A stretch of 64,000 nucleotides of DNA from Oscillospiraceae bacterium (GTDB taxonomy: Bacteria; Bacillota; Clostridia; Christensenellales; Aristaeellaceae). Made by a program: the position numbers and the translations under genes. Each line of letters starts with the position of its first letter. Position 1 is the first letter of the stretch. The DNA is taken from contig JAISWI010000094.1 in NCBI GenBank assembly GCA_031270865.1, positions 8,001 through 72,000 on the forward strand, in the 5' to 3' direction. Positions 4,301-23,961 of the stretch are shown piece after piece. The notes beneath the pieces were generated by a model. That model saw only the letters and a program-made list of their open reading frames with translations, did not search any database and was not told where the DNA came from.

Positions 4301-5037
4301 TAGGTTTCACGCGCCGCCGGGTCGTCGATCACGACCGAATCAAGCTCGGTCAGGAACGTGGTGTGGCGGCAGTGGTCGGACCAGTACGCGTCGAGTATCG
4401 CAAGCTCCGCGCGAGTCGGGTCGCGGCCTTCCGCGCGGTAATAATCCTGGCAGCACAACAGGTCCGCTGTCTCCAGCGACAAGCGCCGCTCGTCGATCCA
4501 GCGTCCCAGCGCGGATTCATCCCAATCGCGGAAACCGGACACGGTCTGGACCGGCGCTGGCTCAGGCTGGTCCACGGCCAGCGATTCGGGCAGATCAAAC
4601 GACGCCTCGCGGCTGTCCACCGGGTTCACGACATATTTTACCAGCGCGTCGCGACCCGCCCGCGAGATCTCCCCTTCCAATATATACACCCGCGCGGCGC
4701 GTACTAGCGGCCTTACCGACTGCGTGATCAGCTGGACGCACTCCGCCGCCGAGTCCGCGCGTTGGTCGAACTGCCCCGGCAGCGCCTCCCACGCGAACAC
4801 CTTCGACGGGTCGGCAGGCGGCAACCGCGCGTACGCCTCGTCCAGCGGCGGCTCGTAGAACACCAGCGGCGCGACGGCCGCGAACGTTTCCGGGTCCAGC
4901 CCCTCCACGTCGTAGCGGTTGAGCGCGCGTATCGACGTCAGCCCGGTCAGCCCCAACTGCTCCCGCGCGTCCCGCAGCAGCCGCTCCGCCTCGACCGCGT
5001 ACGGCGGCCTCTTCTCCGTGTATATACGGTTAACCAT
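1345..5037 (-). CDS. purL: Phosphoribosylformylglycinamidine synthase, large single-chain form
   Basis: About 1230 aa starting MVNRIYTEKRPPYAVEAERLL. It has the synthetase domains plus a C-terminal glutaminase (GVCNGFQALVKLGL...HGEGRF). The start at 5037 overlaps the purD stop by 8 nt; the upstream extension in the track is Arg-rich noise. Confidence 0.95.
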   Translation of the reverse strand: MVNRIYTEKRPPYAVEAERLLRDAREQLGLTGLTSIRALNRYDVEGLDPETFAAVAPLVFYEPPLDEAYARLPPADPSKVFAWEALPGQFDQRADSAAECVQLITQSVRPLVRAARVYILEGEISRAGRDALVKYVVNPVDSREASFDLPESLAVDQPEPAPVQTVSGFRDWDESALGRWIDERRLSLETADLLCCQDYYRAEGRDPTRAELAILDAYWSDHCRHTTFLTELDSVVIDDPAARETYELFLKLRAKGGPPTLMELATFGPKALAALGKPPLVDESDEVNACSVPVTVDEDGAEQQWLLLFKNETHNHPTEIEPFGGAATCVGGAIRDPLSGRARVYHAMRVTGAGDPTEPVSRTLPGKLPQRKLTQTAAAGFSSYGNQIGLATGHVREFYHPGYAAKRLELGAVVGAVPVRNVRRLRPEPGDIVLLIGGRTGRDGVGGASGSSRAHALSSLASCGAEVQKGNAPTERKLQRLFQTPEAARLIKRCNDFGAGGVCVAIGELADGLDIALDAVPRKYDGLDGTELAVSESQERMAVVVAPGDADAMLDFARGENLEATPVAVVTESPRLVMRWRGQTVADLDRAFLNANGAKRRASAVVPAGKPMFGKPPIGENTPIKPRFASLLSSLNVCSQQGLAERFDSTIGAGTVIMPFGGRFQRTPSQFMAARFPVAGVTDACSGMACGFQPEWMERGAYGGAYLAVCEAVMKLVAAGFERSRLYLTLQEYFPRLGGDPARWGQPLAALLGALAAQVALGVAAIGGKDSMSGSFEGMDVPPTLVAFAVGAGSIQRIVSNELKPVAGGKGLRLVRVGVNPLVDPDGFITTLDGIERLAKSGKLDAAWTLGPGGLAEALFKMGVGNGVGSRVECGADALFEETPGAILLALRDGAIVDDLPGMLAVGETIAEPIIMIGSDSLTLAELAVPYDATLEGVFPRQAGKDSAPAAPLSFVRRSVTRSGGFARPRAWIPVFPGTNCEEDTARALERAGAMPVIQVIRNLTPTEIVESAGRAASLIRNSQMIVLPGGFSGGDEPDGSAKLILAFLRNPTVGGALGEFLREGLTLGVCNGFQALVKLGLVPFGGIRAQDASSPTLTYNVIGRHQSMLVRTRVASNLSPWLSRCAVGDIHTVAVSHGEGRFVISPEQYERLAASGQIAAQYVGLDGMPAMAAPFNPNGSYGAVEAITSPDGRILGKMGHSERAGRGLYMNVARDAYQPIFEGGVDYYR

Positions 5038-15078: not shown

Positions 15079-16557
15079 TCACAGGAGGATGCAGATCATG
15101 CCGCCGCCGCCCTCGTTGACTATCTTGGTGAGGGTATCCTGGACCTTCTCCTGCGCGTCCAGCGGCATATTCGATAGTTTGGTCGACAGGCCCTCGCGGA
15201 CCATCTCATGCAGTGATTTCCCGAAGAAGTTAGTCTCCCATATCTGTTCAGGGTTCTGCTCAAACTCGCTTAGCAGGTACTGCACCAGTTCCTCGGACTG
15301 CTGCTCGGTGCCGACGACGGGGGTCACCTCGGTGGTGATGTCGGTGCGGATCAGATGCAGCGACGGGGCGCTGGCCTTCAGCTTTACGCCAAAGCGGTTG
15401 CCCTGCTTGACGATCTCCGGCGGCTGCAGCGTTAACTCGGACACGGCGGGCACGACCAGCCCGTAGCCCGTCTGCCGGACGGCGGAGAGCGCGTCGGCTA
15501 TCCTGTCATATTCCTTCTTGGCGAACACCAGCTCCTTGAGCAGCGCGAGCAGGTGCGCGTCGCCGCGTATCTCCGTGCCCGCCTCCTCGCCCAGTATCTT
15601 GTTGAACAGGCCTTCCTTCAGCGGCAGCGCGTACGTGACGGAGCCTTCGCCCAGCTTCGCGGTTACGGGCTGCGCGGCGTCGGCGTACTCGTTTTGGCTG
15701 ACCGCGCTGGCGAACACGGTCTGGTCGCGCATCAGCGGCGCTTCCAATTCAGCAGCGCTGGCCGTCTCCAGCAGCGACTGCAGCAGCCAGTGGTTCTCGT
15801 CTAAGGCCTGCGTCCAGCCGGGCAGCTCGATCCTGAATTCCCTAAGCGGGAACGCCATAAGCAGGTCGCTCAATAACCCTGAGATCTCCTCCGCGCCCAT
15901 GTTCTTCGCGTCGACCGCCGAGACGGGCACGGAATACTTCGCTTCCAATAATTGTTTTAGCTGCTGTGTCTCCGGGCGGCTGGGCGCGGCGCTGTTGAGC
16001 ACGACCACGAACGGTTTATGCAGCGCCTTAAGCTCGCGCACGACGCGTTCCTCCGCGTCGGTATACGCGCTGCGCGGCAGCTCCGTGAAGCTGCCGTCGG
16101 TGGTGACGACCAGGCCCAGCGTGCTGTGGTCGGCGATGACCTTGCGCGTGCCGATCTCGGCCGCGTCCTCGAACGGTATATCCTCATCATACCACGGGGT
16201 GTGGACCATGCGGGCGGCCTCGCCCTCCGACGTGCCCAACGCGCCGGGCACCAGGTACCCGACGCAGTCAACCAGGCGCACGCTCGCGCTCGCGCTTTCG
16301 CTTAGCGGGACCTCCACGGCCTCATCCGGCACGAACTTGGGTTGGGTGGTCATGATCGTCCGTCCGCTGCCGCTCTGGGGCAGCTCGTCGATGACGCGCA
16401 TGCGCTTGTGCGGGTTGTCGATGAGCGGGGTGACCATCTGGTCCATCATGCGGCTGATAAACGTGGACTTACCCGTTCGGACGGGCCCGACGACGCCGAT
16501 GTATATGTCCCCGTTCGTCCGTTCGGCGATATCACGGTACAGGTCAAAGGATTCCAT
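15079..16557 (-). CDS. spoIVA: Stage IV sporulation protein A (coat basement-layer ATPase)
   Basis: MESFDLYRDIAERTNGDIYIGVVGPVRTGKSTFI...DELPQSGSGRTIMTT...; full length, 492 aa. Confidence 0.95.
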   Translation of the reverse strand: MESFDLYRDIAERTNGDIYIGVVGPVRTGKSTFISRMMDQMVTPLIDNPHKRMRVIDELPQSGSGRTIMTTQPKFVPDEAVEVPLSESASASVRLVDCVGYLVPGALGTSEGEAARMVHTPWYDEDIPFEDAAEIGTRKVIADHSTLGLVVTTDGSFTELPRSAYTDAEERVVRELKALHKPFVVVLNSAAPSRPETQQLKQLLEAKYSVPVSAVDAKNMGAEEISGLLSDLLMAFPLREFRIELPGWTQALDENHWLLQSLLETASAAELEAPLMRDQTVFASAVSQNEYADAAQPVTAKLGEGSVTYALPLKEGLFNKILGEEAGTEIRGDAHLLALLKELVFAKKEYDRIADALSAVRQTGYGLVVPAVSELTLQPPEIVKQGNRFGVKLKASAPSLHLIRTDITTEVTPVVGTEQQSEELVQYLLSEFEQNPEQIWETNFFGKSLHEMVREGLSTKLSNMPLDAQEKVQDTLTKIVNEGGGGMICILL

Positions 16558-16618: not shown

Positions 16619-16647
16619 ATGGTATGCGCTGGAATCCCGGTTTATTA
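16619..16647 (-). promoter_or_regulatory. Candidate SigE-type (mother-cell) promoter of spoIVA
   Basis: The minus strand reads TAATAAA-14 nt-CATACCAT. The remembered B. subtilis SigE consensus is kmATAww-14-CATACAhT. It sits about 55 nt upstream of the ATG and overlaps the stop of the SDR gene. Confidence 0.4.
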
Positions 16648-17430
16648 CGGCTGCTTGCCGATGTAGGCCAGTATCCCGCCGTCAACGTACAGGATGTGGC
16701 CGTTGACGAAGTCCGACGCGCGCGAGGCCAGGAACACCGCGGGGCCGACCAGATCATCGGTGGTGCCCCAGCGGGCGGCGGGGGTCTTGCCAATGATGAA
16801 CCTGTTGAAGGGATGATCCGGGGCGCGAAGCGGAGCGGTCTGCGGGGTCTCGATGTAGCCGGGGCCGATGCCGTTGCACTGGATGTTATACTGGCCGTAC
16901 TCGCTGGCGATGTTGCGCGTTAACATCTTAAGCCCGCCCTTGGCCGCCGCGTACGCGCTGACGGTCTCGCGGCCCAGCTCGCTCATCATCGAGCATATGT
17001 TGATGATCTTGCCGCCGCCCCTGGCGATCATCGCGGGTATGACGGCCTTGGAGACGATGAACGGCGCGTTAAGGTCCACGTCGACGACCTGGCGGAAGTC
17101 GGCGGCGGACATCTCGATCATCGGTATACGCTTGATGATCCCGGCGTTGTTGACCAGGATATCGATGAACCCGGAGTCCTTTTCGATTTGGGCGATCAGG
17201 TTCTGGACGGCGGGTTCGTCGGTTACGTCGCAGACGTAGCCCAGCGCGTCTATACCGGCCTGGCGGTACGCGGCCAAGCCCTTATCCACCAAATCCTGGT
17301 TGATATCGTTGAAGGCGATCCTCGCGCCATACGCCGCGAACGCGCTGGCGATCGCGAAACCGATGCCGTACGATCCGCCGGTGACGAGCGCGAGACTGCC
17401 CGTCAGGTCGAACAGGTTTCCTGTAGGCAT
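16645..17430 (-). CDS. SDR-family oxidoreductase, gluconate 5-dehydrogenase-like
   Basis: MPTGNLFDLTGSLALVTGGSYGIGFAIA...NNAG...SAYAAAKGG... The start at 17430 has GGAAGGGGG upstream. The track's longer ORF reads through a repeat element. Confidence 0.85.
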   Translation of the reverse strand: MPTGNLFDLTGSLALVTGGSYGIGFAIASAFAAYGARIAFNDINQDLVDKGLAAYRQAGIDALGYVCDVTDEPAVQNLIAQIEKDSGFIDILVNNAGIIKRIPMIEMSAADFRQVVDVDLNAPFIVSKAVIPAMIARGGGKIINICSMMSELGRETVSAYAAAKGGLKMLTRNIASEYGQYNIQCNGIGPGYIETPQTAPLRAPDHPFNRFIIGKTPAARWGTTDDLVGPAVFLASRASDFVNGHILYVDGGILAYIGKQP

Positions 17431-17510
17431 TGTTGGAATCCCCCTTCCGGTTATATGTGTTTCCGCGTGGTTACCCGAATGGTACCACAGCGCGGTGATT
17501 GGCGCAAGCG

Positions 17511-17600: not shown

Positions 17601-17688
17601 AAAAACCATAGTAACACAATACAAATCATCAGCGTATACATACACCAGCACATAACCCCCACAACCTTTTAAAAAAGGAATGATCGCG

Positions 17689-19101
17689 ATGAGGAAACAC
17701 AACCGCGCGTATAGTAAGCGCGGTCGCACCAAGTGCGCCCAAAACAGACTCGCCCGACTGCGGCGCGTCTATAATGAACAAGTAAATAGCAACCGGGCAT
17801 GGATCGCGCGTCCATACGCCATTCCTGAAAAGCCCGCGGTAACTATAAAGATAAAGAAAATCAAGAAGTCCGAGGTTGAAGCCCCGTCACGCAAGCCCAT
17901 TACGGTCAGTACGTATGAGGAACTGCGCGACACGCTCGCAAGCGCGAGCACCGGGTCCGAAATCCAGCTTATTAACGATATTACGGTCACGAGCGGCCTG
18001 GCCATCCCAGCGAACAGGAGCATATACCTCACATCCGACCCGAATAACAACAGGCGCCTCACGCGCGGGCAGCTGCTTGGCGGCGATATGGTAACGGTCC
18101 TGGAAAACGCGCAGCTGTTCCTGTCGCGCGTGACGCTCGACGGCAACCAATACGGCGTGACCGTCGGCTCCGGCGCGTTGATCGCGATTACCCACACCAA
18201 CGCCAGGGTTTATCTATACAGTGGGTCGGAACTGGAGAACAACAGGAACGACTTCAACTCGGGCGGAGCGGTGCGCATAGACGGGGCTGGCCTTGCCGGA
18301 TTATCCATAGACGGCGGCGTTATCCGTCACAACACCGTCACGCAGACCGACCTGTACGGCGGCGGGGTGTTCGTCAACAAGGGCGTGCTTGAGCTGCGCG
18401 ACGGCGAGATAACGAATAATCACGCCTCGCTCGGCGGCGGCGTGGCCGCTTTCCCCAGCGGGTATATCCAGCTGGTGGGGGACGACATGTCCATCAGTGA
18501 GAACACCGCCACCGACGGCGGCGGCGTGTACCTCAACGGCGCGGCGTTCGCGATGCTGGCCGGGGATATCACCCGCAACAACGCCGATAAGAACGGCGGA
18601 GGCATGTTAATGACGGGGAACTCCGCGTTCAGCATGTCCGGCGGCGCGATAAGCCACAATACCGCGCTGTTGGACGGCGGAGGCATCGCCGATGAGAACA
18701 TGGTCGGCGGCATGGATGTTAACGGCGCATTAACCAACAACACCGCCACGCGGATGGGCGGCGCGATCTATATCGCGCACGACTCGCTCAACCGCCTGAG
18801 GGTCGGCGACAGCGCGGTATTCGCAGACAACCACGCCGCGTGGTCCACGCCCGCGCATACAGCCGCCGACGCGCTGCTCTACAACTCATTCGTGTCGCCC
18901 AGCGCGGTATGGACGAATCCGCTGTCACAGGGATATAACAACTATGATATCTCCTACCCGAAGCCTTCCGGCGGCGGTGGCGGCAGCGGAGGCGGCGGCA
19001 GGTTCGGCGGCTTCGGCTACAGCAGAACGCGTCGACGCGCCGACCAGGTCGTGTGGTGCGCCTCGACCGATTTCTGCGAGTGCGTCCGCAATCACGGCTA
19101 A
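17689..19101 (+). CDS. Right-handed beta-helix protein (PMP/GGAI-type repeats, adhesin-like); no signal peptide; Gly-rich plus Cys tail
   Basis: Repeated GGAV/GGGVF/GGGVA/GGGVY/GGGML/GGGIA/GGAIY turns. Also carries the ...WTNPLSQGYNNYDISY module. The N-terminus is very basic (MRKHNRAYSKRGRTK...) with no hydrophobic segment. The C-terminus is GGGGGSGGGGRFGGFGY...VVWCASTDFCECVRNHG. The start could be 17680 or 17689. Confidence 0.75.
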   Translation: MRKHNRAYSKRGRTKCAQNRLARLRRVYNEQVNSNRAWIARPYAIPEKPAVTIKIKKIKKSEVEAPSRKPITVSTYEELRDTLASASTGSEIQLINDITVTSGLAIPANRSIYLTSDPNNNRRLTRGQLLGGDMVTVLENAQLFLSRVTLDGNQYGVTVGSGALIAITHTNARVYLYSGSELENNRNDFNSGGAVRIDGAGLAGLSIDGGVIRHNTVTQTDLYGGGVFVNKGVLELRDGEITNNHASLGGGVAAFPSGYIQLVGDDMSISENTATDGGGVYLNGAAFAMLAGDITRNNADKNGGGMLMTGNSAFSMSGGAISHNTALLDGGGIADENMVGGMDVNGALTNNTATRMGGAIYIAHDSLNRLRVGDSAVFADNHAAWSTPAHTAADALLYNSFVSPSAVWTNPLSQGYNNYDISYPKPSGGGGGSGGGGRFGGFGYSRTRRRADQVVWCASTDFCECVRNHG

Positions 19102-19185
19102 GCCTATCAAAACATTAATGTATAGATAACAAGCATTTATCTATAAATGTATACGCTTCCCGATTGACTATAAGGAGAGATCGCC

Positions 19186-20253
19186 ATGTCAATGAACCGC
19201 ATGACTAAATATTACAAGAAGAGAAAGACTGCGGCGCGAAGCGGGAATATCCGCGCGGGATCGCCGTCATTAAGGATCGGCGTCAATGACTTCGCGAACC
19301 TGAACAATATACTCACAAACAACACCGGACCAGACATCGGAATCGAACTCACTGGGAATATTATTTTAACCGGCCCCCTAACGATACGCACCGGCAAAAC
19401 CGTAACCATATCATCCACCGGAGGCCGGAAAACCCTTACCCGCGCCGCGAACTTTAGCGGCGATATGTTTACGATTATGTCGGGCGCAAAGTTAATAATT
19501 AATAATGTTATTATCGACGGAAATAAGAACGGCGTCACAGGATCGCCAGGCGCGATCATCGTGTTGGCCGGTGTCGACTCCGCCCTCGACGTGGGAAACA
19601 ACACTATACTGCGGAATAATAAGAATGAAACAACAAACGGCGGGGCGATCAGCGCCAACGGAGGCCAGGTCAGGCTGCTATACGGATCGGAGATCTCTGG
19701 AAACACCGCGGCTTACGGAGGCGGCGTCGCGCTTATGGGCTCAACCACGCTCATACAAGAAAATGGCGGAACGATCAATAATAACGCCGCCGCAATTGAC
19801 GGCGGCGGCATAGCGGGAATCCTATGGTCCGGAACCATAAACATCCGAGGCAATATCTCCTTCAACGCCGCGGCAAAGAACGGCGGCGGCATATATGTCC
19901 CTAAGGGCAGCCTTTCCCGATTAACTGTCGAGAGCAGCGCAATCTTCAGCCAAAACACAGCGACAAACCCCGTGATGATGTATAAAGCGTCCGACCACGC
20001 GCTGTATACCTCGCGCATCTTTGGCATAGTATGGTCCGCGTACAACCAGGGCTACAACAACCTTGATATAGCCTACAGCAGGGCGGCAAGCGGAAGCGGC
20101 GGGACAGCCCGCAGGCAATCCGTATGGATCGGCGGGTCACACCCGGTCGTGCTGTGCGACAGGCCTTACAGCTCCCCGATAAACGTGCCGTGCGGGTGCC
20201 GGACGATGAACGGCGGCGGCAGGTGCTGCAACGTAAGCTTCCCCACCTGCTAG
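19186..20253 (+). CDS. Paralogous beta-helix protein; basic N-terminus; 7-Cys C-terminal tail
   Basis: Turns are GGAIS/GGGVA/GGGIA/GGGIY, and the ...YNQGYNNLDIAY module is shared with the upstream gene. N-terminus MSMNRMTKYYKKRKTAARS. C-terminus VVLCDRPYSSPINVPCGCRTMNGGGRCCNVSFPTC. AAGGAGAG lies 6 nt upstream. The gene is visibly more AT-rich than its neighbours. Confidence 0.75.
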   Translation: MSMNRMTKYYKKRKTAARSGNIRAGSPSLRIGVNDFANLNNILTNNTGPDIGIELTGNIILTGPLTIRTGKTVTISSTGGRKTLTRAANFSGDMFTIMSGAKLIINNVIIDGNKNGVTGSPGAIIVLAGVDSALDVGNNTILRNNKNETTNGGAISANGGQVRLLYGSEISGNTAAYGGGVALMGSTTLIQENGGTINNNAAAIDGGGIAGILWSGTINIRGNISFNAAAKNGGGIYVPKGSLSRLTVESSAIFSQNTATNPVMMYKASDHALYTSRIFGIVWSAYNQGYNNLDIAYSRAASGSGGTARRQSVWIGGSHPVVLCDRPYSSPINVPCGCRTMNGGGRCCNVSFPTC

Positions 20254-20273
20254 AACTGACAATCCCGGACGAG

Positions 20274-20305
20274 GCGGGCGGCCAGAACAGGCCGCCCGCT
20301 TTACC
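20274..20305 (+). terminator. Intrinsic terminator between convergent genes
   Basis: GCGGGCGGCC-agaaca-GGCCGCCCGC followed by TTTACC. Confidence 0.6.
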
Positions 20306-20309
20306 TTAC

Positions 20310-21110
20310 CTAAACCTCTATCAGCCCCTCGCGGAACTTATCCAGATACTCCAAACAATACTCATCAATCCCCAGCAGCGCCTCCGCCGCCCATATCAGC
20401 GACATCAGTTTGGTATCCAGCGGGTCAAGGATCGCGCCGTCCATCCCGGCGGCCATCGCCGCGACAAGGAACGCCTGGTTGACCAGCTTCCGCGCGGGCA
20501 AACCAAACGACACGTTGGACAGCCCGCACGCGATATGCGCGTCCGGGTACTCCGTCTTGACGCGGCGGATCGTCTCGATAGCCGCAACGCCGTAGCGCGG
20601 CCCGGTCGACACGGGCCTTACCAGCGGGTCGATGTATATATCCGACAGCGGCACGCCCGCGCCGGTCAGCTTCGCTATCAGCCTTTCGGCAATCGCGAAC
20701 CTTCCGTCGGCGGTCTCGGGCATCCCAGTGTCGTCCATGCACAGCGCGATCAGCTTCGCCTTGTACTCCAGCGCGAGCGGGAGTATAGCGTCGAACCGCG
20801 CCTTCTCGTCCGTGATGGAGTTGATGAGCGGCTGGCCGTTCCTATTCACCTTCAGCGCGGCGGCGACAGCCTCCGCGCTGGGCGAATCGATGGAGAACGG
20901 CTTATCCGTCACGGCCTGGACCGTCTCCACCAGCCACGCGACGCGCTCGGGCTCGGTGCCGTGGAACATCCCCGCGTTAACGTCGATGAACGCGGCCCCG
21001 GCGTCCGCCTGCTTCTTCGCCAGCGACTGGATAGCCGCCGCGTCATACTTCTCGATCGCGGGCCGCACGGCCTTCAGCGTGCTGTTGATCTTCTCGCCAA
21101 TTATTATCAT
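20310..21110 (-). CDS. Methyltetrahydrofolate:corrinoid methyltransferase (AcsE/MtgA-like pterin-binding protein)
   Basis: MIIIGEKINSTLKAVRPAIEKYD...FIDVNAG...LINSIT...IYIDPLV...GLSNVSFG closely parallels Moorella MeTr (MLIIGERING...LDLNVG...MINSTN...LYIDPLI...GLSNVSQ). Confidence 0.8.
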   Translation of the reverse strand: MIIIGEKINSTLKAVRPAIEKYDAAAIQSLAKKQADAGAAFIDVNAGMFHGTEPERVAWLVETVQAVTDKPFSIDSPSAEAVAAALKVNRNGQPLINSITDEKARFDAILPLALEYKAKLIALCMDDTGMPETADGRFAIAERLIAKLTGAGVPLSDIYIDPLVRPVSTGPRYGVAAIETIRRVKTEYPDAHIACGLSNVSFGLPARKLVNQAFLVAAMAAGMDGAILDPLDTKLMSLIWAAEALLGIDEYCLEYLDKFREGLIEV

Positions 21111-21124
21111 AATATAACCGCTCC

Positions 21125-22123
21125 TTATCCCAAAGCCTCGGCCAGCGCGGGGACGACCTCGAACAGGTCGCCAGTCACCGCTATGTCGGCCAGCTTCATC
21201 ATAGGCGTGTCGGGGTTCCTATCGATCGCGACGATGCAGCCACAGGACTGCATGCCCACCAGATGCTGTATCTGCCCGGATATCCCGCAGGCTATATACA
21301 GCGCGGTCTGCACGGTCTGGCCGGTCTGCCCCACCTGGTGAGGATAGGCGATCCATCCGGCGTCGACAGCCGCGCGGCTCGCCCCGACCGCGCCGCCCAG
21401 CTTATCCGCCAGACGCTTGAGCATCGCGAAGCCTTCCGGCCCCCTCATCGCGCGTCCGCCGGATACTATAACCTTCGCGTCGGCCAGGTTCACGCCCGAC
21501 TCACCGCCGCGAACCGTCTCGATAACGCGCTTCGCGTTCGTCACCCCGGCGTCGGGCGGCTGTTCCCTGATGGTCTCGCCCTTGCGGGTTGGATCGGGCG
21601 GCAAGGCCTTCATCACGTTCGGGCGCACCGTGGCCATCTGTGGGCGGTGGTTGGACGCGCGGATCGTGGCCATGATGTTCCCGCCGAACGCTGGCCGGGT
21701 CTGGAGCAGGTCGCCCGTTTCCGGATCGATCGCCAGTCCCGTGCAGTCGGCGGTCAATCCCGACACGGTCCGCACCGCCGCGCGTGGGATCAACGCGCGT
21801 CCCCGGGCGGTCGCCGCGCACAGCACGATCTCTGGCTTGTACTTGCCTATAAGATGGTTCAGCGACGCGCACTCCAGCTCGTCGTTAAATCCTACGAACT
21901 CCGGCCCGTTTACCACGATCGCGATGTCCGCGCCGTACGCGAACAGCGACGCGTCGGCCTCGCCGCCAACCACTATCGCGGCGACACGCGATCCCCGCGC
22001 GTCCGCCAGGCCTCGCGCCGCGCCGATCAACTCATACGTGACGGGCTGAATCGCGCCGCCGACGGTCTCCGCTATGATCCATACATTCGTGAATAACGGC
22101 TTATCAGCGTCAGTTATCCGCAT
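21125..22123 (-). CDS. etfA: Electron transfer flavoprotein alpha subunit
   Basis: ...VWIIAE...RPAFGGNIMATI...SGGRA...ASRAAVDAGW...QVGQTGQTV...YIACGISGQIQH... The start at 22123 lies 2 nt after the etfB stop. Confidence 0.9.
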   Translation of the reverse strand: MRITDADKPLFTNVWIIAETVGGAIQPVTYELIGAARGLADARGSRVAAIVVGGEADASLFAYGADIAIVVNGPEFVGFNDELECASLNHLIGKYKPEIVLCAATARGRALIPRAAVRTVSGLTADCTGLAIDPETGDLLQTRPAFGGNIMATIRASNHRPQMATVRPNVMKALPPDPTRKGETIREQPPDAGVTNAKRVIETVRGGESGVNLADAKVIVSGGRAMRGPEGFAMLKRLADKLGGAVGASRAAVDAGWIAYPHQVGQTGQTVQTALYIACGISGQIQHLVGMQSCGCIVAIDRNPDTPMMKLADIAVTGDLFEVVPALAEALG

Positions 22124-22125
22124 GG

Positions 22126-22926
22126 TCAGCGCCCTCCCTGTATCAGTTCGCGGGCCTGGAGGATTTCTAGCAGCCGCGAGGCGCACTCTACTGGCGATCC
22201 AGCGACATGGATTGTCCCGCCGCCGCGCGGTTCGGGCGGAGCGGTCCTGACAACGCGCGTGGGCGACGCGTCAAGGCCGATCTTGGACAGGTCGGCCGCT
22301 ATGTCGGCAGGTTTCCATACCGGCACGTCGGCGGCGCGGGCGGCCAGCACACCGCGCAGCGAAGGCACGCGCGGCTGGTTTATCCCCTTGACCACCGTAA
22401 TAACGGCGGGGAAGGCCAGCTCGCACACGTCGTAACCATCCTCGTTCATGCGCTGGACGGTGATTGTTTCAGGAGTAACCGCGCGGATGTCCGCGACATA
22501 TGTAGCCTGACAGAATCCCAGATGCGCCGCGATGCCCGGCCCGACCTGCGCGGTATCGCCGTCGACGGCCTGTTTGCCGCAAATGACCAGATCAACGCCG
22601 CCGATCGTATCGACCGCGCGGGCCAGCGCGTAGCTGGTAGCCCATGTGTCGGAGCCGCCGAACGCGCGGTCGCTGAGCAGGACGCCGCGATCCGCGCCGA
22701 TAGAGAGGGCCTCGCGTATCACCGCGGACGCGCGTTCCGGGCCCATCGACAGCGCGATCACCTCGCCGCCGAACCGCTCGCGCAGCAGCACGGCCTCCTC
22801 GACAGCGTACAGGTCGAACGGGTTAAGGATGGATTTCACGCCCTCGCGGATGATCCGCTTGGTCTCGGGGTCTATCTTCGCGTCGGACGTGCCGGGCACC
22901 TGCTTAACGCATACCACTATCTTCAT
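22126..22926 (-). CDS. etfB: Electron transfer flavoprotein beta subunit
   Basis: MKIVVCVKQVPGTSDAKIDPETKRIIREGV..LNPFDLYAVEEA... The start overlaps the upstream stop (ATGA). Confidence 0.9.
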   Translation of the reverse strand: MKIVVCVKQVPGTSDAKIDPETKRIIREGVKSILNPFDLYAVEEAVLLRERFGGEVIALSMGPERASAVIREALSIGADRGVLLSDRAFGGSDTWATSYALARAVDTIGGVDLVICGKQAVDGDTAQVGPGIAAHLGFCQATYVADIRAVTPETITVQRMNEDGYDVCELAFPAVITVVKGINQPRVPSLRGVLAARAADVPVWKPADIAADLSKIGLDASPTRVVRTAPPEPRGGGTIHVAGSPVECASRLLEILQARELIQGGR

Positions 22927-23741
22927 GACGCTGTCGCCTCCGGCAGGTTCTTCCAAAGCTTCTCGATGATCGGATACTGGATCTTGAAGCCCAGCAGCGA
23001 CAGGTAGACGCCGCATTGGGGGTACCAGGCGTGGAGCTTGCGCAGGGTATCCAGCGGGCTGTAGGCCGTGTCCTCGGGGATCTGGTAGCCGACGACGTCG
23101 GAGAGGAGGTAGAGCTTCTTGGTCATCCAGGCTTCGACGACGGTCGGGATGGCGGGATAGCGGCGCAGGAGTTCGTCAACGACGGGGTGCCGCGCGATTA
23201 TGGGCTGCGTGACGATAAATGTCGCGCCGGCGGCCAGCTTGCGCTCCATCTTCGCGAATTCATGGTCGGGCGGCTCGTACGGGTTGAACGCCACGCCCAG
23301 GATGTATTCGGGGTAAGCGCTCCTGATGTACTGAAGCAACTCGACGGAGGTTACGGAGGAAACGCCTTCCGCGCCAACGTCGGCGGGCTGGAGTTTGGGC
23401 AATCGATCCGAACCGTCGCCGCTGATAGCCAGCAGGTACCTCAGCCCCATCCGGCGGCCTTCGGAGAGGATGAAGTCGAGGTCAGGCTTGGTGTGGAAGG
23501 TGTTGAGGTGGATCATCACCTGGTCGGGCGGGACGGGCAGGCCGAGGTACTCGATCGTCTCAAGGCCCTGGAAGGCTAAGAGGCCCATCGCGTTGTCGGT
23601 TATACAGGCGCAGTAGCCGCTGGCCATCACGCGGCGGTACTTCTCGGCGAACTGGACGAGGTCGGCGTCCAATTTCTCGGAGTCCTGCTTAGGAGGGACT
23701 ATTTCTACGTGATAGCGGCGGTTTTGGATATGTTCGCGCAT
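22923..23741 (-). CDS. Methylenetetrahydrofolate reductase (MetF)-like TIM-barrel protein
   Basis: ...YHVEIVPPK...HLNT...LLAISGDG...AFNPYEPPD...ATFIVTQP parallels E. coli MetF (FEFFPP...HLTC...ALRGD...AYPEVHPE...AITQFFF). I chose the ATG at 23741, which has GGAAAGG upstream. Confidence 0.75.
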   Translation of the reverse strand: MREHIQNRRYHVEIVPPKQDSEKLDADLVQFAEKYRRVMASGYCACITDNAMGLLAFQGLETIEYLGLPVPPDQVMIHLNTFHTKPDLDFILSEGRRMGLRYLLAISGDGSDRLPKLQPADVGAEGVSSVTSVELLQYIRSAYPEYILGVAFNPYEPPDHEFAKMERKLAAGATFIVTQPIIARHPVVDELLRRYPAIPTVVEAWMTKKLYLLSDVVGYQIPEDTAYSPLDTLRKLHAWYPQCGVYLSLLGFKIQYPIIEKLWKNLPEATAS

Positions 23742-23850
23742 ACGACCAGCCTTTCCGGTGCGTAATATGGTAGAATGACCATCACGCATTGTAACATGGC
23801 TTACGCTGAAGCGCAAACCATAGAGGAACAACATACCCTGGCCACGAGGG

Positions 23851-23961
23851 TCCAGCGTCACGCTGGTCAGGGGGTCAAGGGGGGTGAAACCCCCTTGCGG
23901 GGTCTGGGGCGGAGCCCCAGCGTTCCCCTCCTTGCCGCCCCTGGTAGGCGACAAGGGGGGG
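23851..23961. repeat. G-rich hairpin repeat element (copy C)
   Basis: Three hairpins: CCAGCG-tca-CGCTGG, AAGGGGG-gtgaaa-CCCCCTT and CTGGGGC-gga-GCCCCAG. They are followed by ggtaggcgacaaggggggg, which shares the GGCGACA(A/G)(A/G)GGGGG core with the other copies. Confidence 0.6.

What the first reader, a model, noticed from the sequence alone, without database searches (positions are those of the whole stretch)
17689..20253. Tandem paralogs: adhesin-type beta-helix proteins with no signal peptide, basic N-termini and Cys-rich tails, next to spoIVA
Both proteins carry the GGxI/V-type beta-helix turns and the ...W(T/S)..(S/N)QGYNN(Y/L)DI(S/A)Y module. I associate these with secreted or LPXTG-anchored Firmicute surface adhesins and PMP-like proteins.

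Neither protein has a hydrophobic signal sequence or an anchor. Their other features are:
- N-termini: strongly basic (RKHNRAYSKRGRTK.. and KYYKKRKTAARS..).
- C-termini: short Cys clusters. The first has 3 Cys after a poly-Gly linker. The second has 7 Cys in the last 33 aa.
- Composition: the second gene and the intergenic DNA are visibly more AT-rich than the surrounding genome.

Inference: these may be mother-cell-made spore-surface (coat, crust or exosporium) proteins. The basic N-terminus would target them and the Cys tail would cross-link them, as in the Cys-rich outer-layer proteins CotY/ExsY/CdeC. This would be an adhesin fold displayed by a different route.
Basis: partly seen in the sequence, partly recalled or inferred. 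Interest (0 to 1): 0.65.

Follow-up and report, generated by a model that had tools for sequence, protein, structure and literature searches.

The report
Signal-less adhesin-fold proteins, likely spore-surface
Two neighbouring genes in a termite-gut Clostridia genome encode adhesin-like beta-helix proteins that have swapped the usual export signal and membrane anchor for short cysteine tails and sit behind a late-sporulation (SigK-type) promoter motif, so they are probably displayed on the spore surface, though nobody has tested this.

Summary
p1 (17689-19101, 470 aa) and p2 (19186-20253, 355 aa) are paralogs (30% identity, E 6e-27). Both are PMP-type right-handed beta-helices ending in a W..QGYNN(Y/L)DI.Y cap. 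Neither has a hydrophobic N-terminus or an anchor, and their cysteines sit almost only in the C-terminal tails. Two details were wrong: p2 has 6 Cys, not 7, and spoIVA is one gene away, a link that is not conserved.

The helix-plus-cap module is shared across termite-gut archaea and bacteria, where it carries a signal peptide plus a TM anchor or InlB repeats. The variants without a signal peptide and with Cys tails were identified only in Oscillospiraceae/Clostridia or in unassigned metagenome contigs. The p1-p2 tandem recurs in three MAGs, and dN/dS is 0.33-0.43.

New evidence: every p1-type gene carries GTAAC(A/G)-N16-C(A/G)TA about 47 nt upstream (about 95 nt in L004/L001). This matches experimentally defined C. 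difficile SigK promoters (GTAACA-N15/16-CATA). PWM scoring gives combined P about 1e-5, while homologs with signal peptides score as background. A SigE PWM picks the spoIVA promoter as the top site in the window, which validates the approach.

Best reading (about 0.5): proteins made late in the mother cell and placed on the spore outer layer, held by the Cys tail. The basic N-terminus is not conserved, so it is unlikely to be the targeting signal. Localisation is untested.

The parts
17611..17640 (+). SigK-type promoter-like element upstream of p1. The -35 is GTAACA (17611-17616), followed by a 16-nt spacer and the -10 CGTATACA (17633-17640). It ends 48 nt before the start codon.
   Evidence: The sequence was read. 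GTAAC(A/G)-N16-C(A/G)TA is conserved upstream of the p1-type genes in L001/L004, L003, L038 and L006. The SigK PWM score is 10.2, ranking 15th of 127,938 positions in the window; P(region) is 0.02. Caveat: the second base of the -10 is G, whereas it is A in all 27 training promoters.
17689..19101 (+). p1 coding sequence (470 aa; NCBI LBS11_12295, annotated 'hypothetical protein').
   Evidence: The RBS GGA at 17677-17679 lies 9 nt before ATG 17689, and the AAAGGAATGATCG context is conserved in orthologs.
17689..17898 (+). p1 N-terminal extension (aa 1-70). It is strongly basic, with a predicted helix at aa 13-38 and then a disordered stretch. It contains Cys16.
   Evidence: It is conserved only in the closest ortholog P0002/P0283 and is absent or non-basic in other family members.
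17899..18957 (+). p1 right-handed parallel beta-helix with PMP-type GGG(I/V/A/M) turns. It ends in the cap module WTNPLSQGYNNYDISY (nt 18910-18957).
   Evidence: The AF2 model has pLDDT above 90 over most of aa 70-380 (75-87 from about aa 381 to the cap). Foldseek returns generic beta-helix hits only. TIGR01376 POMP_repeat scores 15.2 bits and PF20585 scores 20.4 bits, below its cut-off.
18958..19098 (+). p1 Gly-rich linker, a basic patch (SRTRRRADQ) and the C-terminal tail VVWCASTDFCECVRNHG (nt 19048-19098).
   Evidence: The tail motif (V/I)(V/I)WC..T..(F/Y)C(E/K/G)C is conserved in P0002/P0283, P0123/L003, P0143/L038, L006 and P0148.
19102..19185 (+). AT-rich p1-p2 spacer (34.5% GC). It holds the inverted repeat TATAGATAA/TTATCTATA (19121-19129 / 19137-19145) and the p2 RBS AAGGAGAG (19172-19179).
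   Evidence: The hairpin folds no better than shuffled sequence (z -1.3). No convincing promoter of its own was found (SigK P(region) 0.12). The spacer is only about 40 nt in L004 and L002.
19186..20253 (+). p2 coding sequence (355 aa; NCBI LBS11_12300). It has a basic N-terminal 30 aa and a beta-helix at aa 30-270. The cap WSAYNQGYNNLDIAY lies at nt 20032-20076.
20155..20250 (+). p2 six-cysteine tail with spacing C-x11-CxC-x8-CC-x6-C (aa 324-355).
   Evidence: The same spacing and 59% identity are found in ortholog P0122. It aligns with the p1 tail at the hh(W/L)C...CxC core.
20273..20299 (+). GC-rich hairpin GGCGGGCGGCC-agaaca-GGCCGCCCGC followed by TTT, lying between the convergent p2 and pterin-methyltransferase genes. 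It is a possible terminator.
   Evidence: Read directly from the sequence. The consensus terminator scan did not call it.

Best explanation
p1 and p2 are a co-transcribed pair of adhesin-fold proteins. They are made in the mother-cell cytoplasm late in sporulation, from a SigK-type promoter in front of p1. They are then deposited on the outermost spore layer (coat surface, crust, exosporium or an appendage).

They derive from a termite-gut-wide cell-surface module: a PMP-type beta-helix with a QGYNNYDISY cap. In this Clostridia lineage the Sec signal peptide and the C-terminal membrane anchor were replaced by (i) sporulation-specific transcription and (ii) a Gly/Pro-rich linker plus a short terminal Cys motif. 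That motif attaches the protein to the spore layer or to its partner, by disulfides or metal bridging. The helix would project outward as the adhesive part.

Shown here: the fold, the paralogy, the lack of export or anchor signals, conservation of the tails and of the tandem arrangement, purifying selection, and the conserved SigK-like motif.

Inferred: actual SigK dependence, spore localisation, the tail chemistry, and any adhesive function.
For: 1. Architecture. Both proteins have a confident beta-helix core and disordered termini. There is no hydrophobic segment at either end, and no upstream start codon is possible.

2. Comparison with relatives. Relatives carrying the same cap module in Bathyarchaeia, Methanimicrococcus, Treponema and others have an N-terminal signal/TM segment. 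After the cap they carry a TM anchor or InlB B-repeats. The module is therefore normally extracellular.

3. Taxonomic restriction of the tail.
- In a scan of GTDB species genomes, full-length matches including the tail occur only in Oscillospiraceae MAGs.
- An exhaustive HMM search of 1.84 billion representatives found 471 clusters with the cap. Only three clusters carry the p1-type tail.
- The source genomes carry sporulation genes: spoIVA in the window and spoIIE in L003.

4. Conservation.
- The p1-p2 tandem recurs in L004 and L002.
- dN/dS is 0.42, 0.43 and 0.33 for three ortholog pairs.
- The helix bodies contain no Cys, and in p2 every Cys lies in the tail.

5. Promoter.
- GTAAC(A/G)-N16-C(A/G)TA lies 46-48 nt before the start of the p1-type genes in the window, L003, L038 and L006, and 96 nt before it in L004/L001.
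- C. difficile SigK promoters mapped by TSS and mutant transcriptomes read GTAACA-N15/16-(C/A)ATA (PMC7438776 Table S6).
- Per-region P values are 0.007-0.07. Fisher's combined P over five lineages is 9e-6.
- Signal-less Clostridia genes score better than 59 signal-peptide-bearing homolog genes (Mann-Whitney P 2e-5).
- Other signal-less architectures (L028, L084) carry the motif too.
- Positive control: the SigE PWM's best site in all 64 kb is upstream of spoIVA.

6. Precedent. [quoted passage not shown]
Against: - There are no expression, proteomic or imaging data. All sources are uncultured MAGs.
- In the window and in L004 the -10 reads CGTA, not CATA. The training set has A at that position in 27 of 27 promoters. 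The window site ranks only 15th in the window. GTAAC-N17-CGTATA also resembles ECF-sigma promoters of the SigW/SigX type (my knowledge).
- No SigK-dependent control gene was available in these genomes.
- There is no sequence or profile similarity to any known coat or exosporium protein.
- p2 has no promoter of its own, so its expression is inferred from operon structure.
- The spoIVA adjacency and the basic N-terminus are not conserved.
- About 15% of control genes reach comparable promoter P values.
Confidence: 0.5

Rival explanations
1. The proteins are made in the mother cell but are not built into the spore. They would be released when the mother cell lyses, as free adhesive or matrix proteins, or as glycan-acting enzymes with a beta-helix (pectate-lyase-like) fold. 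They might act on the mother-cell wall or the surroundings.
For: The same SigK-like promoter evidence applies. The beta-helix fold is shared with polysaccharide lyases, epimerases and tailspikes. A weak PF20585 pectate-lyase-like match exists.
Against: Structural matches are generic (best PDB E 1e-3, TM 0.3-0.4, identity 9-14%). The sequence homologs are PMP-type repeat proteins with anchors, not enzymes. A conserved terminal Cys tail after a flexible linker is better explained by attachment than by a soluble role.
Confidence: 0.15
2. The proteins are not sporulation proteins. They would be vegetative proteins that reach the surface by an unrecognised non-Sec route, or that act in the cytoplasm. 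Transcription could come from an ECF-type envelope-stress sigma factor recognising GTAAC-N17-CGTA.
For: The window and L004 promoters read AAC-N17-CGTATA, which fits ECF consensus (consensus from my knowledge). No localisation data exist.
Against: L003, L038 and L006 have CATA, not CGT, at the same register. No secretion-system genes flank any of the loci. A normally extracellular module with no export signal has no obvious vegetative route.
Confidence: 0.2
3. The genes are decaying remnants of horizontally acquired surface-protein genes that lost their signal peptides. On this view they are non-functional, AT-richer foreign DNA.
For: GC3 is lower than in neighbouring genes in 5 of 6 loci. The module is clearly shared horizontally among termite-gut taxa.
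Against: The ORFs are intact in every MAG examined. The tails, the tandem order, the RBS and the promoter block are all conserved. dN/dS is 0.33-0.43 at dS 0.34-1.5.
Confidence: 0.05
4. The proteins are phage or tailocin tailspike/tail-fibre proteins, which lack signal peptides because they are released by lysis.
For: Beta-helix tailspikes appear among the structural matches.
Against: There are no PHROG hits. No phage genes lie nearby. The flanks are housekeeping genes with conserved synteny: SDR, pterin methyltransferase, etfAB, amt, rpsB. The best viral matches are generic.
Confidence: 0.03

Closest known systems
Termite-gut cell-surface beta-helix proteins with the WT.P.TQGYNNYDISYT cap. 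This family is unnamed. Sources annotate members as 'InlB B-repeat-containing protein', 'predicted outer membrane repeat protein' or 'TIGR02543 family'. Pfam hits are PF02415 Chlam_PMP repeats with PF09479 or PF18998.
   Same: True homologs, with 28-38% identity over the helix and E down to 1e-46. They share the PMP-type turns and an identical cap motif.
   Different: They carry an N-terminal signal/TM segment. After the cap they have a TM anchor or Ig-like/InlB repeats. p1 and p2 have neither, and instead have Cys tails and a sporulation-type promoter motif.
Cys-rich spore outer-layer proteins: CotY/CotZ (B. subtilis crust), ExsY/CotY (B. cereus group exosporium) and CdeC/CdeM (C. difficile).
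   Same: Proposed logic only: synthesis in the mother cell without a signal peptide, late (SigK) expression, and cysteines used for self-assembly or cross-linking (my knowledge; C. difficile SigK regulon from PMC7438776).
   Different: No sequence or domain similarity was found. In p1 and p2 the cysteines are confined to a tail of about 20-32 aa on a large Cys-free passenger. In the known proteins they are spread through a self-assembling protein.
Ena endospore appendage subunits (DUF3992) of the Bacillus cereus group.
   Same: They are made late in the mother cell and are surface fibres of spores. Short terminal Cys-containing connectors covalently link the subunits (PMC12921279; connector chemistry from my knowledge).
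   Different: The fold differs (jellyroll versus beta-helix) and there is no homology. Polymerisation of p1/p2 is pure speculation.
Chlamydial polymorphic membrane proteins and other beta-helix adhesins, for example serine-rich repeat protein binding regions and autotransporter passengers.
   Same: They share the GGxI/V and FxxN repeat style and the right-handed beta-helix (L. reuteri SRRP 5nxk is among the hits).
   Different: Those proteins are exported by Sec plus an autotransporter barrel, or by aSec plus LPXTG. p1 and p2 have no export or anchoring signals.

Membership tests
PMP-repeat right-handed beta-helix proteins (PF02415 / TIGR01376) | Repeated GGxGxx(I/V) and FxxN turns recognised by the repeat models. 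| tested here: inconclusive
   p1 scores 15.2 bits against TIGR01376 (cut-off 15, E 0.014). p2 has no hit. Pfam PF02415 is not reported for either protein, but it is for homologs such as P0003, P0016 and P0163. There are 8 (p1) and 4 (p2) GG[GA][IVAML] turns.
PMP-repeat right-handed beta-helix proteins (PF02415 / TIGR01376) | Right-handed parallel beta-helix fold. | tested here: met
   AF2 gives pLDDT 82.6 and 79.4, with the cores mostly above 90. Foldseek hits are all beta-helix proteins.
Termite-gut capped beta-helix surface proteins (unnamed) | C-terminal cap W..P.(T/S)QGYNN(Y/L/F)DI.Y following the helix. | tested here: met
   p1 aa 408-423 and p2 aa 283-297. 153 GTDB loci and 471 representative clusters share the cap.
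Termite-gut capped beta-helix surface proteins (unnamed) | N-terminal signal peptide or TM segment, with a C-terminal TM anchor or InlB/Ig repeats. | tested here: not met
   Hydrophobicity maxima are 0.29 and 1.21, against 2.5-3.4 in signal-bearing homologs. The tails have no TM stretch.
LPXTG/sortase-anchored Firmicute adhesins | Signal peptide plus a C-terminal LPXTG motif, hydrophobic stretch and basic tail. | tested here: not met
   No LPxTG-like motif and no hydrophobic C-terminus.
CotY/CotZ/ExsY/CdeC Cys-rich spore outer-layer proteins | Sequence or profile homology to these families. | tested here: not met
   No Pfam or NCBIfam hit to any coat or exosporium family at E up to 1.
CotY/CotZ/ExsY/CdeC Cys-rich spore outer-layer proteins | Late mother-cell (SigK) transcription. 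| tested here: inconclusive
   A conserved SigK-like motif is present (family-wide P about 1e-5). The window copy has a G in the -10, and no expression data exist.
CotY/CotZ/ExsY/CdeC Cys-rich spore outer-layer proteins | Presence in the spore coat or exosporium, with disulfide-dependent assembly. | not testable with these tools
   This needs spore proteomics, microscopy or biochemistry.
Ena endospore appendages (DUF3992) | DUF3992 jellyroll subunit with an N-terminal Cys connector. | tested here: not met
   No DUF3992 hit. The fold is a beta-helix.
Pectate-lyase-like adhesive domain (PF20585) | Score above the Pfam gathering threshold. | tested here: not met
   p1 scores 20.4 bits against a cut-off of 24.3. 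p2 has no hit.

The most novel reading that the evidence does not exclude
Termite-gut Clostridia may have re-routed a horizontally shared cell-surface adhesin module to the endospore surface. The change would have two parts: Sec signal plus membrane anchor replaced by a SigK promoter, and addition of a modular Cys-rich self-anchoring tail.

At least five tail or domain types exist on signal-less capped helices: the p1 type, the p2 type, a 5-Cys type, a roughly 100-aa CCG domain, and an FGVFD-repeat type.

On this reading p1 and p2 form a covalently linked heteromeric fibre or nap on the spore. That structure would mediate attachment to the gut wall, wood particles or other cells, and so aid transmission between termites. 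This would be a new class of spore-displayed adhesins and a new kind of spore-anchoring tag.
Probability: 0.25. Interest if true: 0.8.

Novelty: new variant of a known kind. Interest (0 to 1): 0.6.

Why it matters
Spore surfaces of anaerobic gut Clostridia outside C. difficile are almost uncharacterised, even though spores are how these obligate anaerobes move between hosts.

If the reading is right, it gives a concrete example of how a surface protein is retargeted from the cell envelope to the spore. The retargeting would work by changing the promoter and the anchoring tail rather than the functional domain. It would also provide:
- a candidate set of spore adhesins in a socially transmitted (termite) microbiome;
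- short Cys tags that might be usable for spore-surface display;
- a simple in-silico signature for finding coat or exosporium proteins in uncultured spore formers: an extracellular-type fold, no signal peptide, and a SigK motif.

If the reading is wrong, these are still an unexplained, conserved, signal-less branch of an otherwise secreted family.

Tried and rejected
- The third word-indexed protein search, using the p2 tail alignment (A4), returned nothing, not even the query itself. That search was wasted.
- A degenerate-DNA scan of JGI metagenome contigs for the p1-type tail gave 13 hits. All were out of frame or interrupted by stops, so they are chance matches. That collection apparently lacks the termite samples.
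- Sequence searches of the PDB with p1 and p2 gave no meaningful match.
- Foldseek against the PDB and BFVD gave only generic beta-helix matches.
- The roughly 100-aa CCG Cys domain of related proteins has no Pfam, NCBIfam or PDB match.
- PHROGs gave no hit, and Rfam gave no hit in the window.
- The spacer hairpin at 19121-19145 folds no better than shuffled sequence. The sigma-70 and terminator scan found nothing relevant upstream of either gene.
- I first read the p1 upstream region as a SigE-type promoter (CAATACA-N15-CATACACC). I dropped this because the site is not conserved in L001 and the SigE PWM scores it poorly (3.6).
- Other readings considered from the sequence and rejected:
  - KxYKxGKxW/YSIRK-type signal: no hydrophobic core follows the basic N-terminus.
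  - Tat signal: no RR motif followed by a hydrophobic stretch.
  - BMC encapsulation peptide or T7SS N-terminal helix: the helix is not conserved in paralogs.
  - RiPP, SCIFF or lanthipeptide precursor with a giant leader: no maturase gene is nearby in any of the six loci.
- spoIVA adjacency as functional linkage was rejected. An SDR gene intervenes, and the adjacency is absent in L038.
Full report
**1. What is there**

The window is 63.8% GC. The products of the two ORFs are identical to NCBI proteins LBS11_12295 and LBS11_12300 from a MAG labelled 'Oscillospiraceae bacterium'.

p1 runs from 17689 to 19101 on the + strand and encodes 470 aa. The ORF opens at ATG 17680, but GGA at 17677-17679 lies 9 nt before ATG 17689. 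The AAAGGAATGATCG context is conserved in orthologs. p2 runs from 19186 to 20253 and encodes 355 aa, with an AAGGAGAG ribosome-binding site. Both ORFs begin at the first start codon after an in-frame stop, so neither can be extended upstream.

The two proteins are paralogs: 30% identity over about 340 residues, E 6e-27. AF2 models show confident right-handed parallel beta-helices, at p1 residues 70-425 and p2 residues 30-270. The termini are low-confidence. Foldseek returns only generic beta-helix proteins: rhombotarget A, PL6 lyases, AlgE epimerases, tailspikes and an SRRP adhesin. The best PDB E-value is 1e-3.

Domain models give only marginal hits: TIGR01376 POMP_repeat at 15.2 bits, and PF20585 below its cut-off.

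Each helix ends in a cap: WTNPLSQGYNNYDISY in p1 and WSAYNQGYNNLDIAY in p2.

**2.

*No export or anchor signal.* The maximum 15-residue hydrophobicity in the first 80 aa is 0.29 for p1 and 1.21 for p2. Homologs with signal peptides score 2.5-3.4. Neither tail has a TM-like stretch or an LPxTG motif.

*Basic N-termini.* The first 40 aa carry net charge +11 in p1 and +8 in p2.

*Cysteines.* p1 has Cys16 plus C457, C463 and C465, after a GGGGGSGGGG linker. p2 has six Cys in its last 32 aa, not seven in 33. The helix bodies contain no Cys.

*Composition.* p2 is 54.8% GC with GC3 0.68, and p1 has GC3 0.78. Neighbouring genes have GC3 0.79-0.86. The spacer is 34.5% GC. Lower GC3 than the neighbours is a family trait, seen in five of six loci.

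*spoIVA.* spoIVA (15079-16557, - strand) is not directly adjacent. An SDR gene (16645-17431, - strand) lies between it and p1. In L038 the order is MTase-SDR-p1-like with no spoIVA. The proximity is therefore coincidental.

**3. Relatives**

The helix-plus-cap module is a termite-gut speciality that crosses domains. The best hits beyond the orthologs come from Bathyarchaeia, Methanimicrococcus, Treponema, Burkholderiales and others.

A scan of 185,579 GTDB species genomes for QGYNN[YLF]DI found 153 confirmed loci. Nearly all of the 80 loci listed are termite-gut MAGs. Candidatus Bathycorpusculum and 'Nitrososphaerota' MAGs carry many copies per genome. The rest are Oscillospiraceae, Clostridiales, Christensenellaceae, Coriobacteriia and Dehalococcoidia, plus one Cohnella.

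These relatives have an N-terminal signal/TM segment. After the cap they carry a TM anchor or InlB-type repeats. The module is therefore normally extracellular.

**4. The signal-less, Cys-tailed subfamily**

*Type 1 (p1-like).* The tail motif is (V/I)(V/I)WC..T..(F/Y)C(E/K/G)C at the C-terminus. Members are P0002/P0283 (Ct408_bin33/LBH66; L001, L004), P0123 (Gx481_bin194/LBK46; L003), P0143 (L038), L006 (Nm470_bin129) and P0148 (LBK46_03935).

*Type 2 (p2-like).* The tail is C-x11-CxC-x8-CC-x6-C. Members are P0122 (L002) and the gene immediately downstream of the p1-like gene in L004. L002 begins with the last codons of a p1-like gene (…CANGRS*). The p1-p2 tandem therefore occurs in three MAGs, with a spacer of only about 40 nt in two of them. 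The two tail types align at a shared hh(W/L)C…CxC core.

*How rare the tail is.* In an exhaustive HMM search of 1.84 billion representatives, 471 clusters have the cap. Only three clusters carry the p1-type tail over its full length.

*Other signal-less variants.*
- LBS11_00225 (P0282) is a third paralog in the same MAG as the window.
- P0158 and P0174 are neighbouring genes (locus tags 22440 and 22450 on one contig) in 'Clostridia bacterium AGMMS49992', with a 5-Cys tail.
- One group carries an uncharacterised domain of about 100 aa with 8-10 Cys.
- Another group carries FGVFD repeats and a Cys-rich end.

*Selection.* dN/dS is 0.42 (L003 vs L038, dS 0.34), 0.43 (p1 vs L004) and 0.33 (p2 vs L002). 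These are functional but fast-evolving genes.

*The basic N-terminus is not conserved.* Net charge of the first 40 aa ranges from +12 to -4 across the family. It is unlikely to be the general targeting device. The tail is the constant feature.

**5. The promoter motif**

*The conserved block.* The upstream regions of p1 in the window and in L001/L004 share a nearly identical 55-nt block, although the proteins are only 53% identical. Across all five distinct p1-type upstream regions the common core is GTAAC(A/G)-N16-C(A/G)TA. It ends 46-48 nt before the start codon in four of them and 96 nt before it in L004/L001.

*The match to SigK.* Experimentally supported C. difficile SigK promoters read GTAACA-N15/16-(C/A)ATA(T/G)… (TSS mapping plus mutant transcriptomes; PMC7438776 Table S6).

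*PWM scoring.* I built SigK and SigE PWMs from 27 and 31 of those promoters.
- As a control, the SigE PWM's best site in all 127,938 positions of the window is GTAATAAA-N14-CATACCAT, 61 nt upstream of spoIVA. Clostridial mother-cell promoter models therefore transfer to this organism.
- The SigK PWM places the family promoters among the top 1-15 sites of their loci.
- P(region) is 0.020 for the window, 0.012 for L004, 0.014 for L003, 0.066 for L038 and 0.007 for L006.
- For other signal-less architectures, P(region) is 0.018 (L028), 0.069 (L030), and 0.026 and 0.077 (the two L084 genes).
- Fisher's combined P over five lineages is 9e-6.
- Fifty-nine homolog genes with signal peptides behave as background, with median P 0.38. 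Mann-Whitney P is 2e-5.

*Caveats.*
- The window and L004 copies have CGTA rather than CATA in the -10. This also resembles an ECF-type AAC-N17-CGTA promoter (consensus from my knowledge).
- No known SigK-dependent gene from these genomes was available as a control.
- Most of the control genes are archaeal.

*p2.* p2 has no convincing promoter of its own (P 0.12) and is probably co-transcribed with p1. The spacer hairpin is not significant (z -1.3).

**6. Interpretation**

An extracellular-type adhesin fold without any export signal could be explained by synthesis in the mother cell. Three further facts fit that reading. The subfamily is confined to endospore-forming Clostridia. It sits behind a conserved late mother-cell promoter motif. 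It ends in a linker plus a dedicated terminal Cys motif. The most economical explanation is therefore synthesis in the mother cell followed by deposition on the outer spore layer, with the tail providing attachment.

This matches the logic of CotY/ExsY/CdeC and of Ena appendages, which are made late in the mother cell (PMC12921279). It does so without any homology to them. I put about 0.7 on mother-cell expression and about 0.5 on spore-surface localisation.

Rivals are:
- release at mother-cell lysis without incorporation into the spore (0.15);
- a non-sporulation role with ECF-type control or an unknown export route (0.2);
- gene decay (0.05);
- a phage tailspike (0.03; no PHROG hits, housekeeping synteny).

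**7. Novelty**

The fold and the module family are known kinds. The signal-less, Cys-tailed, SigK-motif-bearing branch is undescribed as far as the held literature shows. Searches for exosporium or spore coat together with beta-helix found nothing relevant. If the reading is confirmed, this is a new variant of spore outer-layer protein. It would be a clear case of retargeting a surface module by swapping the promoter and the anchor.

Noticed in passing
window 16619-16648 (- strand), upstream of spoIVA (15079-16557): GTAATAAA-N14-CATACCAT is the single best SigE-PWM site in the whole 64 kb (score 19.3). It lies 61 nt before the spoIVA start. This is a textbook SigE promoter in a 64% GC Oscillospiraceae genome.
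   Followed up: yes
L005-L083 (GTDB loci); proteins P0003-P0120: The PMP-type beta-helix with the WT.P.TQGYNNYDISYT cap is almost confined to termite-gut MAGs. It spans archaea (Bathycorpusculum, with many copies per genome, and Methanimicrococcus) and at least five bacterial phyla. This looks like an ecosystem-specific, horizontally shared surface module.
   Followed up: partly
L084 6070-7380, 7387-7710, 8001-9308; proteins P0163, P0171, P0177, P0188, P0189, P0196, P0261, P0267: An uncharacterised domain of about 100 aa with 8-10 Cys sits at the C-terminus of signal-less capped beta-helix proteins. Its motif is VCLPVSxxPFAxVGxIxTRCCG…C(D/N)FT(I/V)xQ(R/K)xCVxVPVEFGA…CxxC. It has no Pfam, NCBIfam or PDB match. 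In L084 two such genes flank a 107-aa Cys-rich ORF that shares part of the motif. Both large genes have (C/A)TCACA-N15-CATACTATG upstream.
   Followed up: partly
L038 about 9388 (- strand): A very strong SigK-PWM site (GTAACA-N15-AATACTAT, score 17.8) lies 42 nt upstream of a cysteine-synthase-like gene (MDVIDLVGNTPLIEF…). This might link late sporulation to cysteine supply.
   Followed up: no
protein P0282 (NCBI LBS11_00225; DNA not held): A third signal-less family member from the same MAG as the window (326 aa). It has a poly-Gly linker and the tail …GGLITWGTNT…SVCATVCFHIQ. The genome therefore carries at least three paralogs at two loci.
   Followed up: partly
window 17607-17660 compared with L001 2535-2590: The promoter and 5' leader block is nearly identical between two MAGs whose p1 proteins are only 53% identical. 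It includes CAGCACATAACC downstream of the -10. L001 additionally has a roughly 45-nt insertion with a (CCAG)n-like repeat (GCCAGCCAGCCAGCC) in the leader.
   Followed up: partly
window 20310-23954 (- strand); L002 1251-4682: Downstream of p2 lies a conserved block of pterin-binding methyltransferase, EtfA, EtfB and an MTHFR-like gene, presumably methyl-group or acetogenesis-related metabolism. It is syntenic in two MAGs and unrelated to the finding.
   Followed up: no
L071 (Cohnella xylanilytica DSM 25239, NZ_JACJVR010000004.1), ORF starting at 4648: This is the only cultured organism among the 80 loci listed from the GTDB scan. The ORF is 533 aa, has the cap and shows no obvious signal peptide, but it ends 19 aa after the cap. 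It has no Cys tail and no SigK-like site (P 0.38).
   Followed up: no
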